64,000 nucleotides of DNA, taken from assembly GCF_054482595.1 (NCBI RefSeq), contig NZ_JBTHVH010000001.1; one strand, given 5' to 3'. A program made the translations under genes and the position numbers. This DNA comes from a plasmid. The notes under the pieces are model-generated. The model had not been told where the DNA came from. It ran no database searches and saw only the letters and a list, made by a program, of their open reading frames with translations. Positions 59,122 through 60,097 of this stretch are shown here, in pieces (the first letter of the stretch is position 1; each line of letters begins with the position of its first letter).

Positions 59122-59158
59122 TTTGCTCCAATAAATCAAATCTATTAGAGCAATAAAT
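59122..59158. promoter_or_regulatory. back-to-back pair of C1 operator-like sites between the ant-C operon and the MBL-fold gene
   Basis: TTTGCTCCAATAAATC and reverse complement ATTTATTGCTCTAATAGAT. Confidence 0.6.
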
Positions 59159-59296
59159 TATTATCCCAAGCTTTACAGTGCGCTGTAAAATTCAAACCTT
59201 CGGGTCAGTGGCGGAATCGTATTTCACTCACGGAATGAGTATTATTAGTTTTGTCATACATAGCTAGGTAATGAATCACTTGAAGGAACTACGAAC

Positions 59297-60097
59297 ATGT
59301 CCGTGACCATTAGCGTCCTGCTGGAAAACAGACTTAAGCTTGGAGTTAAAAACTCGCTGCGTGCTAAAGCAGGACTTAGTCTGTTGATACAGGATGAAAA
59401 CGATTCAATCCTGTTTGATACTGGGCCTGATGATAGCTTCATGTATAACGCAGGTTTAATGGGGGTCGATTTGACAAAACTGACCGCAGTTGTACTTTCC
59501 CATGGTCACTATGACCACTGCGGAGGTGTTCCGTGGATACCAGACACATGCAGGATAATATGCCATCCTATGGTGTCGGATGAGCGCTATTCGGCAATCA
59601 GGTTTTTAGGCTATACCGCCAGAATAAAAAAATTATCATTACATAATGATTTTTCACGTTTCCGCATGGAATACAGCAACACACCATTGCATATCAGTGA
59701 GCGTTTTATGTGGTCAGGAGAGATCCCTGTTGCCAGGCCACGCGCTTACGGTGTTATCGGGTGTAAGAATACGAAAGAAGATTACGTAAAAGATGAGGGG
59801 GTTTTAATTTATAAATCAGACTATGGGTTGATCATTTTTATCGGTTGTGGTCATTGCGGGGTAATTGATATTGTGCGCCACTGCCAAAATATAACCGGGA
59901 TAAATCATATTCATGCAATTTTTGGTGGTCTTCATCTGCGCTGTGCGTCCCCTCTTATGCTCTGGAAGGTGAGACAGTTCTTACGCCTTCATAAACCAGA
60001 TAAGATAATGGGGTGTCATTGTACTGGCAAATGGGGACGCTTGTGGTTACCGGAATCAACCTCTCCGGCAACAGGTGATGTTTATGTTCTTGGATAG
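59297..60097 (+). CDS. MBL-fold metallo-hydrolase (short COG1237-like form)
   Basis: LSHGHYDHCGG motif plus later His/Cys/Asp ligand candidates; 266 aa. Confidence 0.55.
   Translation: MSVTISVLLENRLKLGVKNSLRAKAGLSLLIQDENDSILFDTGPDDSFMYNAGLMGVDLTKLTAVVLSHGHYDHCGGVPWIPDTCRIICHPMVSDERYSAIRFLGYTARIKKLSLHNDFSRFRMEYSNTPLHISERFMWSGEIPVARPRAYGVIGCKNTKEDYVKDEGVLIYKSDYGLIIFIGCGHCGVIDIVRHCQNITGINHIHAIFGGLHLRCASPLMLWKVRQFLRLHKPDKIMGCHCTGKWGRLWLPESTSPATGDVYVLG

What the first reader, a model, noticed from the sequence alone, without database searches (positions are those of the whole stretch)
59122..60097. C1-operator-controlled MBL-fold hydrolase at the position where P1 carries ref
Downstream of cre, a back-to-back operator pair drives ant-C leftward and, rightward, a 266-aa metallo-beta-lactamase-fold protein with an HxHxDH-like motif (LSHGHYDHCGG). 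In P1 this position holds the C1-repressed ref gene, so this phage appears to have replaced a lysogeny-to-lysis switched nuclease with an unrelated enzyme. Short MBL-fold proteins include nucleases and cyclic-nucleotide or small-molecule hydrolases; a derepression-induced one could act as an anti-defence or signalling-degrading enzyme.
Basis: partly seen in the sequence, partly recalled or inferred. Interest (0 to 1): 0.6.

Follow-up and report, generated by a model that had tools for sequence, protein, structure and literature searches.

The report
Borrowed metallo-hydrolase gene replacing P1 ref
A P1-like phage-plasmid has lost most of its ref nuclease gene to an insertion carrying a second antirepressor module and an intact but uncharacterised bacterial metallo-beta-lactamase-fold gene; nothing shows the phage repressor controls that gene or that it counters host defence.

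Summary

It does sit where P1 has ref. A 2,564-bp insertion (57548-60111) replaced the first ~450 bp of ref and left a 37-codon remnant. The insertion has two parts: a complete second immI module (operator, C4 RNA, icd, ant; leftward) and the MBL gene.

The MBL gene came with about 80 bp of its own conserved leader. Its relatives are chromosomal or plasmid genes of Enterobacterales in unrelated contexts. The subfamily is nearly absent from phage collections.

The "operator pair" is one good C1 operator (59138-59154, minus strand, 1 mismatch) plus a 4-mismatch partner. Both lie on the leftward P51a-type promoter of the second immI module. No convincing rightward promoter links them to the MBL gene.

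The identical cassette is on 12 of 5,426 complete E. coli genomes, always on P1-like plasmids, already annotated "MBL fold metallo-hydrolase".

Verdict: an ordinary cargo gene of unknown substrate. The anti-defence idea is untested and unsupported.

The parts
57453..57469 (+). Remnant of the P1 ref operator Oref (ATTGCTCTAATTGAGCC). A 13-bp deletion between direct repeats removes the P2ref -10. The site still lies left of the insertion and points into the 3' end of ant.
   Evidence: Alignment to P1 1838-2090 and the P1 annotation.
57548..60111 (.). 2,564-bp insertion relative to P1. It replaces P1 2070-2527 (ref start and first ~450 bp).
   Evidence: blastn against P1: 56900-57547 = P1 1408-2069; 60112-61025 = P1 2528-3437.
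57550..58602 (-). ant (antirepressor, 350 aa) of the second immI module. Its stop codon abuts the left junction.
   Evidence: phrog_63 anti-repressor Ant, E 1.8e-111; about 80% nt identity to P7 immI.
58599..58820 (-). icd-like gene of the second immI module.
   Evidence: ORF list; RefSeq annotation of the identical plasmid.
58868..58953 (-). C4 antisense RNA gene of the second immI module, with its own specificity (CATGTAC).
   Evidence: Rfam RF01695, 71.7 bits; alignment with P1/P7.
59022..59074 (-). a1/b1 target sites of C4 RNA in the leader of the second immI operon.
   Evidence: Rfam RF03163, 55.5 bits.
59068..59096 (-). P51b-type promoter of the second immI module (TTGATC-17-TATAGT), leftward.
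   Evidence: Promoter scan; aligned with P1 P1c4.
59138..59154 (-). C1 operator (ATTGCTCTAATAGATTT, 1 mismatch). It is the Oc4/Op51 equivalent of the second immI module.
   Evidence: the P7 and P1 annotations place Oc4 here.
59122..59138 (+). Degenerate inverted partner operator (TTTGCTCCAATAAATCA, 4 mismatches), lying in the spacer of the leftward P51a-type promoter.
59157..59214 (.). Junction segment of unknown origin, found only in this plasmid lineage. It contains a perfect 7-bp inverted repeat separated by 4 nt, TTTACAG-TGCG-CTGTAAA (59172-59189).
59215..59296 (+). Leader that travels with the MBL gene in other Enterobacterales. It holds the invariant GTATTAT (-10-like TATTAT at 59240-59245) and the ribosome-binding site. 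A 12-nt deletion removes a hairpin present in the other copies.
   Evidence: blastn and MAFFT of upstream regions from six contexts.
59297..60097 (+). MBL-fold protein gene, 266 aa, Tflp/TM1679/tw9814 (COG1237) subfamily. Candidate ligands: H69, H71, D73, H74, H90, C184, H186, H213, H241, C242.
60112..60221 (+). 3' remnant of ref (last 37 codons). Not a functional Ref.
   Evidence: phrog_2321 positions 150-186 of 186; P1 alignment; RefSeq labels it Ref family.
60212..60229 (+). Omat operator (CATGCACTAATAAATATA), followed by the mat promoters and mat (60415-61056).
   Evidence: Identical to P1 2628-2645.

Best explanation
The ORF encodes an intact, cytoplasmic, single-domain binuclear-metal protein of the Tflp/TM1679/tw9814 (COG1237, 'DHPS-like') branch of the MBL superfamily.

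It is a passenger gene. A stand-alone gene common in Enterobacterales chromosomes, islands and IncF plasmids was captured with about 80 bp of its own leader. It now lies beside a second immI (C4-icd-ant) module, in a 2.56-kb insertion that deleted the 5' three-quarters of ref in one lineage of P1-like phage-plasmids.

The C1 operator and its degenerate partner are the control element of the leftward immI-2 promoter, not of the MBL gene. The MBL gene is most likely expressed from signals in its own leader. This is inferred, not shown.

Most likely chemistry (also inferred): metal-dependent hydrolysis of a phosphodiester or related small-molecule ester. Reasons: the one family member deposited with an assigned activity (7DCK) is called a phosphodiesterase, and the nearest folds outside the subfamily are all phosphodiester-processing MBLs. 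The physiological substrate and any benefit to phage or host are unknown.
For: - Intact gene and fold.
- All 15 invariant and 21 near-invariant alignment columns are reported on query residues, including C184, H186 and H241-C242.
- Bacterial origin: 529 close homologs, mostly chromosomal in Serratia, Citrobacter, Kluyvera, Edwardsiella, Salmonella and Cedecea, each in a different neighbourhood. There is 82-87% nt identity to IncF plasmids of Enterobacter, Citrobacter and Edwardsiella.
- Cassette limits: homology to those loci runs from 59215 or 59267 to the stop codon at 60097.
- Insertion and deletion of ref.
- Operators belong to immI-2.
- No rightward promoter at 9/12 or better.
- Rare in viruses.
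- One recent event: 12 of 5,426 E. coli genomes, all on plasmids, all 100% identical.
Against: - No expression data exist. A weak rightward promoter that straddles the strong operator (ATCAAA-18-TATTAT, 59135-59164, 8/12) resembles the layout of P1's own P2ref, which has a poor -35, the operator in the spacer and a good -10. C1 control therefore cannot be excluded.
- The only spectroscopic study of a family member (Tflp, as summarised in PMC7785958) argues for a di-iron or Fe-S-like redox centre rather than a hydrolase.
- The 'phosphodiesterase' label of 7DCK is a PDB title. I could not read the underlying paper.
- Gene neighbourhoods give no functional clue.
Confidence: 0.55

Rival explanations
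1. The MBL gene is transcribed rightward from a promoter repressed by C1 at the operator pair. It is switched on at induction or infection and hydrolyses a nucleotide immune signal (as Apyc1 or Acb1 do) or another defence molecule.
For: - A strong C1 operator lies 142 bp upstream.
- A weak candidate promoter straddles it.
- The gene is carried by a temperate phage.
- Family member 7DCK is titled a phosphodiesterase.
- The nearest non-family folds are phosphodiesterases, including Apyc1.
- Precomputed Pfam lists weak or faint PF23023 (Anti-Pycsar_Apyc1) hits on homologs, and an unmarked one on two of them.
Against: - The operator pair exists in relatives that have no MBL gene, and it aligns with Oc4 of immI.
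- No promoter reaches 9/12.
- The family is chromosomal and nearly absent from phage collections.
- The gene carries its own conserved leader.
Confidence: 0.1
2. The protein is not a hydrolase. Like Tflp, it is a redox or iron-centre protein (di-iron or Fe-S-like site using the subfamily-specific cysteines). It would give the lysogen a small metabolic or stress-related trait.
For: - The best structural match, 2P4Z, is titled 'ferredoxin-like MBL superfamily protein'.
- PMC7785958 reports a di-iron centre, Asp-to-Cys at motif 4, a Cys after the motif-5 His, and Fe-S-like spectra.
- C184 and C242 are invariant in 66 sequences.
- Some chromosomal copies sit near anaerobic respiratory reductases and Usp genes.
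Against: - Cys at motif 4 is also compatible with hydrolysis, as in the B1/B2 beta-lactamases noted in the same review.
- 7DCK keeps both cysteines (alignment) and is deposited as a phosphodiesterase.
- The neighbourhood associations are not consistent.
Confidence: 0.2
3. The gene is a functionless hitch-hiker. It was captured by illegitimate recombination with immI-2, is poorly expressed or not expressed in the phage-plasmid, and is on its way to decay.
For: - The leader is truncated at 59215 and has a 12-nt deletion of a hairpin conserved in the other copies.
- ref is dispensable, so the site tolerates junk.
- Only 12 of 5,426 genomes carry the cassette, all identical, so purifying selection cannot be assessed within the lineage.
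Against: - The ORF is full length with every invariant residue, and the ribosome-binding site is intact.
- Both junctions spare the coding sequence exactly: homology ends at the stop codon.
- The lineage is spread over human, pig, chicken and wastewater isolates.
Confidence: 0.12

Closest known systems
Tflp (PDB 2P4Z, Thermoanaerobacter tengcongensis) and TM1679 (PDB 3H3E): COG1237 / 'DHPS-like' MBL-fold proteins
   Same: - Same HxHxDH motif.
- Same GC(S/G)H motif with Cys at motif 4, the same GG(F/L)HL motif, and the same HC(T)G motif with Cys after the motif-5 His.

   Different: - Enterobacterial clade, only about 25-35% identical.
- Here the gene is carried on a phage-plasmid.
- No biochemical data exist for this clade.
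- Metal identity is unknown.
tw9814 (PDB 7DCK, deposited as 'phosphodiesterase')
   Different: - Shorter (248 aa), with a shortened middle insert, and 18-22% identical.
- I could not read the paper, so the substrate range is unknown to me.
Apyc1, the phage anti-Pycsar MBL-fold cyclic-mononucleotide phosphodiesterase (PDB 7U2R/7U2S; PMC9117128)
   Different: - Not a sequence relative at E <= 1.
- Structurally no closer than RNase J/Z.
- Lacks the subfamily's Cys motifs, judging from family separation; this was not aligned residue by residue.
- The family studied here is chromosomal and rare in phages.
P1 Ref (C1-repressed HNH RecA-dependent nuclease) and the P1 cre-c8-ref-mat region
   Same: Same genomic slot. 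The flanks are 93-95% identical to P1.
   Different: - Ref is reduced to its last 37 codons.
- Its operator/promoter region is separated from the slot by the insertion.
- The MBL protein is unrelated to Ref.
immI (Oc4-C4-icd-ant) of P1/P7, and cargo genes in variable regions of P1-like phage-plasmids
   Same: - The operator next to the MBL gene aligns with Oc4 and is followed by P51b, a1b1, C4, icd and ant.
- Cargo acquisition from plasmids is the known behaviour of P1-like phage-plasmids (PMC9600943, PMC10879196 and PMC9603915, listed).
   Different: - This is a second immI copy at a non-canonical place, with a third C4 specificity.
- The cargo is neither an antibiotic-resistance gene nor a recognised defence gene.

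Membership tests
Metallo-beta-lactamase superfamily (Pfam PF00753) | alpha-beta/beta-alpha sandwich fold | tested here: met
   [not shown]
Metallo-beta-lactamase superfamily (Pfam PF00753) | HxHxDH motif plus downstream His and Asp/Cys ligands | tested here: met
   H69-G-H71-Y-D73-H74. H90, C184, H186, H213 and H241 are conserved in the family alignment. Ligand geometry in the model could not be inspected.
Tflp/TM1679/tw9814 subfamily (COG1237, 'DHPS-like MBL') | Full-length sequence and structure similarity to 2P4Z, 3H3E and 7DCK, clearly above other MBLs | tested here: met
   [not shown]
Tflp/TM1679/tw9814 subfamily (COG1237, 'DHPS-like MBL') | Cys replacing Asp at motif 4, and Cys directly after the motif-5 His (PMC7785958) | tested here: met
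   G183-C184-G-H186 and H241-C242 are invariant in 66 sequences, the query included.
Tflp/TM1679/tw9814 subfamily (COG1237, 'DHPS-like MBL') | Metal content (di-iron or Fe-S-like versus Zn/Mn) and catalytic activity | not testable with these tools
   Needs purified protein, ICP-MS, UV-vis/EPR and enzyme assays.
Apyc1 anti-Pycsar phosphodiesterases (PF23023) | Sequence membership in the Apyc1 family | tested here: not met
   No Apyc1 chain among the phmmer PDB hits at E <= 1. The Pfam scan of the query gave only Lactamase_B, Lactamase_B_2 and ODP, but that library may predate PF23023. Precomputed PF23023 hits on homologs are mostly weak or faint and lie under Lactamase_B.
Apyc1 anti-Pycsar phosphodiesterases (PF23023) | Specific structural similarity to Apyc1 | tested here: not met
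   [not shown]
Apyc1 anti-Pycsar phosphodiesterases (PF23023) | Hydrolysis of cyclic mononucleotide immune signals and relief of Pycsar | not testable with these tools
   Experimental.
C1 regulon of P1 (operator-controlled genes) | 17-bp asymmetric C1 operator close to consensus | tested here: met
   59138-59154 (minus strand), 1 mismatch. The window has 15 sites at <=3 mismatches against 0.28 expected.
C1 regulon of P1 (operator-controlled genes) | Operator overlapping, or just downstream of, a promoter that reads into the gene | tested here: inconclusive
   No rightward promoter reaches 9/12. The best is 8/12, ATCAAA-18-TATTAT, straddling the operator. The operator aligns with Oc4 of the leftward immI operon and is present in relatives without the MBL gene. 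Needs TSS mapping.
beta-CASP / RNase Z nucleases | beta-CASP insertion domain or tRNase Z exosite | tested here: not met
   [not shown]
Acquired class B beta-lactamases | Score above the NCBIfam bla cut-offs | tested here: not met
   bla_subclass_B3 scores 21 bits against a cut-off of 240, and all bla models are far below cut-off. Separately, no N-terminal hydrophobic leader is visible in the sequence; no signal-peptide predictor was run.
Ref family (HNH RecA-dependent nuclease) | Intact 186-aa protein with HNH core | tested here: not met
   Only profile positions 150-186 remain, in ORF 60075-60221. P1 2070-2527 is deleted.

The most novel reading that the evidence does not exclude
A Tflp-type (Cys-containing) MBL enzyme, recruited from bacterial chromosomes, has been placed next to a C1 operator in a P1-like phage-plasmid. 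There it would act as a derepression-induced enzyme that destroys a nucleotide or other small-molecule immune signal. That would make it a new anti-defence family, structurally distinct from Apyc1 and Acb1, and would give the large orphan COG1237 family its first physiological role.
Probability: 0.06. Interest if true: 0.65.

Novelty: new member of a known kind. Interest (0 to 1): 0.25.

Why it matters
As it stands, this is one more accessory gene in a variable slot of P1-like phage-plasmids. It illustrates gene flow from plasmids and chromosomes into phage-plasmids, and shows that ref is dispensable.

The wider value is modest. The COG1237/Tflp subfamily is large (more than 3,000 cluster representatives at E <= 1e-10) and has three crystal structures but no agreed function. 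A mobile, easily deleted copy in an E. coli phage-plasmid would be a convenient handle for testing whether these proteins are phosphodiesterases or iron-centre redox proteins.

If the enzyme proved to be induction-controlled and to act on immune signals, it would be a new anti-defence family. Nothing found here points that way.

Tried and rejected
- Nuclease of the beta-CASP or RNase Z type: rejected. The protein is a single 266-aa domain and only the MBL core aligns.
- Methanopterin 'dihydropterin... synthase' name given by JGI/KEGG: rejected from my own knowledge, because Enterobacterales do not make methanopterin.
- Defence-system component: no PADLOC match.
- Functional inference from gene neighbourhood: eleven look-ups gave unrelated contexts. 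Examples are mnmE next to an ornithine oxygenase; an arylamine acetyltransferase with a shikimate-kinase-like gene; Usp genes; queD-cysJ; hipBA; toxin-antitoxin islands; and integrase islands. No conserved partner emerged.
- Late (Lpa) promoter upstream of the MBL gene: by eye, I found no AAGTGACTT-type -22 box like that of LPmat in 59100-59300.
- Read-through from the retained ref promoter region: judged unlikely. It would cross 1.75 kb antisense to ant-icd-C4, there is a terminator-like hairpin at 57879-57904, and the P2ref -10 is deleted.
- Fur-box or LexA-box readings of the leader and of the CTGTATATAAATCG motif in homologs: weak matches judged by eye, not pursued.
- Literature on 7DCK/tw9814: not found in the searchable library.
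- Origin of 59157-59214: no match outside this plasmid lineage.

Full report
**What the window is**

The window is a P1-like phage-plasmid. It is collinear with P1 at 93-99% identity over most of its length. It carries 15 matches to the 17-bp C1 operator consensus at 3 mismatches or fewer, against 0.28 expected by chance. Gene positions near the finding are cre at 55928-56959, c8 at 57010-57321 and mat at 60415-61056.

Yes for the gene.
- ORF 59297-60097 (+) encodes 266 aa, preceded by a GAAGGA ribosome-binding site.
- It contains L-S-H69-G-H71-Y-D73-H74-C-G-G.
- Pfam recognises only the N-terminal third as Lactamase_B (E 3e-15).
- The whole protein aligns to two structural-genomics proteins: 2P4Z (E 2.6e-27, residues 2-244) and 3H3E (E 2.2e-22).
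- A 66-sequence alignment gave an AlphaFold model with mean pLDDT 96.3.

Yes for the position.
- P1 homology runs up to 57547 (= P1 2069, 8 bp before the ref start) and resumes at 60112 (= P1 2528, inside ref).
- The small ORF 60075-60221 matches only positions 150-186 of the 186-position Ref profile.
- So 2,564 bp have replaced the first ~450 bp of ref.

Only partly for the operator pair.
- 59138-59154 (minus strand) is a 1-mismatch operator.
- The plus-strand partner at 59122-59138 has 4 mismatches. About 2.5 sites with 4 or fewer mismatches are expected by chance in the window. However, the genuine Omat is also a 4-mismatch site.

**What the insertion is**

It is composite. Its left 1.6 kb (57550-59154) is a complete immI-type module on the minus strand:
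- ant (phrog_63, E 2e-111) and icd;
- the C4 antisense RNA (Rfam RF01695, 71.7 bits, 58868-58953);
- the a1b1 leader targets (RF03163, 59022-59074);
- a P51b-type promoter (TTGATC-17-TATAGT);
- the operator.

The module is about 80% identical to P7 immI. It is a second copy. The canonical immI lies at 1924-3500, 97.6% identical to P1.

Aligned with P1 and P7, the strong operator is the Oc4/Op51 equivalent. The weak inverted partner lies in the spacer of the leftward P51a-type promoter.

Two relatives, phage vB_EcoM-Ro157c2YLVW and E. albertii plasmid pEA4_97, have this same second immI joined to Omat/mat by about 60 unrelated bp, with no MBL gene. In Ro157c2YLVW the pair is a perfect operator next to a 3-mismatch one. 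The operator pair is therefore a feature of immI-2 and predates the MBL gene at this site, or is at least independent of it.

**Where the MBL gene came from**

- The exact protein is already in NCBI as WP_105075172.1, 'MBL fold metallo-hydrolase', seen on 139 contigs.
- The identical cassette occurs in 12 of 5,426 complete E. coli genomes, always on 95-102 kb plasmids, and in 8 PLSDB plasmids.
- At 82-87% nucleotide identity the gene sits on IncF plasmids of Enterobacter, Citrobacter and Edwardsiella, in unrelated surroundings.
- At 50-90% protein identity it is a common chromosomal gene of Serratia, Citrobacter, Kluyvera, Edwardsiella, Salmonella salamae, Cedecea, Klebsiella and others. The neighbours differ each time and often look like genomic islands.
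- Homology to all these loci ends exactly at the stop codon (60097). It begins 30-82 bp upstream of the ATG.
- The upstream leader, including an invariant GTATTAT (-10-like) and a hairpin, travels with the gene in six different contexts. The window's copy shares it from 59215 and has lost the hairpin through a 12-nt deletion.
- The 58 bp between the operator and that leader (59157-59214) match nothing outside this plasmid lineage.

**Is it a phage-type gene?**

The evidence says no.
- No INPHARED phage record contains it.
- PHROGs has only a marginal N-terminal hit (E 2.5e-4, residues 29-79).
- BFVD has no structure closer than TM 0.46.
- A pattern scan of 2.9 million IMG/VR contigs found two loci at 28-29% identity.
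- PADLOC gives nothing.

**What kind of MBL is it?**

- Foldseek agrees, with TM 0.86/0.82/0.73 and then 0.6 or less.
- The subfamily signature described for Tflp is Cys instead of Asp at motif 4 and a Cys after the motif-5 His (PMC7785958). It is present here and invariant: C184 and H241-C242.
- Two conflicting functional labels exist for the subfamily. Tflp is called 'ferredoxin-like' with a di-iron or Fe-S-like centre. 7DCK is called a 'phosphodiesterase'.
- I favour hydrolysis of a phosphodiester or related ester because of the fold neighbourhood and the 7DCK label. This is inference, and the redox alternative keeps substantial weight.
- The JGI/KEGG name (a methanopterin-pathway synthase) cannot apply in Enterobacterales, on my own knowledge.

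**Is it C1-controlled?**

This is not shown and is, on balance, unlikely.
- No rightward sigma-70 promoter of 9/12 or better lies between 59100 and the ATG.
- The best candidates score 8/12. One of them (ATCAAA-18-TATTAT, 59135-59164) does straddle the strong operator, much as P1's P2ref straddles Oref. I therefore leave roughly a one-in-four chance of C1 control.
- The original ref control region survives left of the insertion, but with a 13-bp deletion that removes the P2ref -10. It faces 1.75 kb of antisense immI-2.

**Verdict**

It over-interpreted the operator as a control element of the MBL gene, and the enzyme as a likely anti-defence factor.

What is there is an ordinary cargo gene of an orphan but structurally known MBL subfamily. 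It is already annotated in public records and sits in a dispensable slot of a P1-like phage-plasmid. I rate it as a new member of a known kind, with low to moderate interest.

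Noticed in passing
window 1915-2260 (+) and 58815-59165 (-): The genome carries two complete immI modules (operator, a1b1, C4 RNA, icd, ant) with different antisense specificities. Copy 1 is P7-type (targets GATTGTG, C4 CACAATC). Copy 2 has GTACATG / CATGTAC at all three co-varying sites, unlike both P1 (GTTAGTG / CACTAAC) and P7. That implies two independently repressed antirepressor switches in one phage.
   Followed up: partly
window 53540-53874: A third, partial ant sequence (86% identical to P1 49381-49715, the 3' end of ant) lies just upstream of the c1-side region that is collinear with P1 93232-94800.
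   Followed up: no
window 57453-57469: The P1 ref operator/promoter region has a 13-bp deletion between TAATTGA direct repeats. Oref becomes ATTGCTCTAATTGAGCC and the P2ref -10 (TATAAT) is lost.
   Followed up: partly
L002 1590-1700, L031/L033 3890-4000, L014/L023 5890-6000 (leaders of MBL homologs); window 59260-59266: MBL homologs in Cedecea, Enterobacter and Edwardsiella share a conserved 5' leader with an inverted repeat (GTTATCGC-N6-GCGGTAAC) just upstream of the ribosome-binding site. This may be a regulatory hairpin or a protein-binding site. It is deleted in the phage-plasmid copy.
   Followed up: no
window 59172-59189: A perfect 7-bp inverted repeat separated by 4 nt, TTTACAG-TGCG-CTGTAAA, lies in the 58-bp junction segment of unknown origin between the operator and the MBL leader. 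The scan reads it as the -35 of a leftward promoter-like site (59189..59160, 10/12, with TG) upstream of the operator.
   Followed up: no
window 58980-59061 (-): Sub-threshold Rfam hit to isrK Hfq-binding RNA (46.3 bits against a gathering score of 50), overlapping the a1b1 leader of immI-2.
   Followed up: no
window 56977-56993 (+): A 4-mismatch operator-like site, ATTGCTCTAATTCTTTG, lies between the cre stop and the c8 start. It is not annotated as an operator in the P1 record.
   Followed up: no
window 61060-63905: P1's res-mod (EcoP1 type III restriction-modification) is absent after mat. mat is followed directly by two small minus-strand ORFs (82 and 146 aa) and the end of a very large minus-strand ORF. 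In the closely related plasmid NZ_CP058750, which has an extra DUF2971 gene in this stretch, the corresponding ORF is annotated as a 6.8-kb N-6 DNA methylase, possibly darB-like.
   Followed up: no
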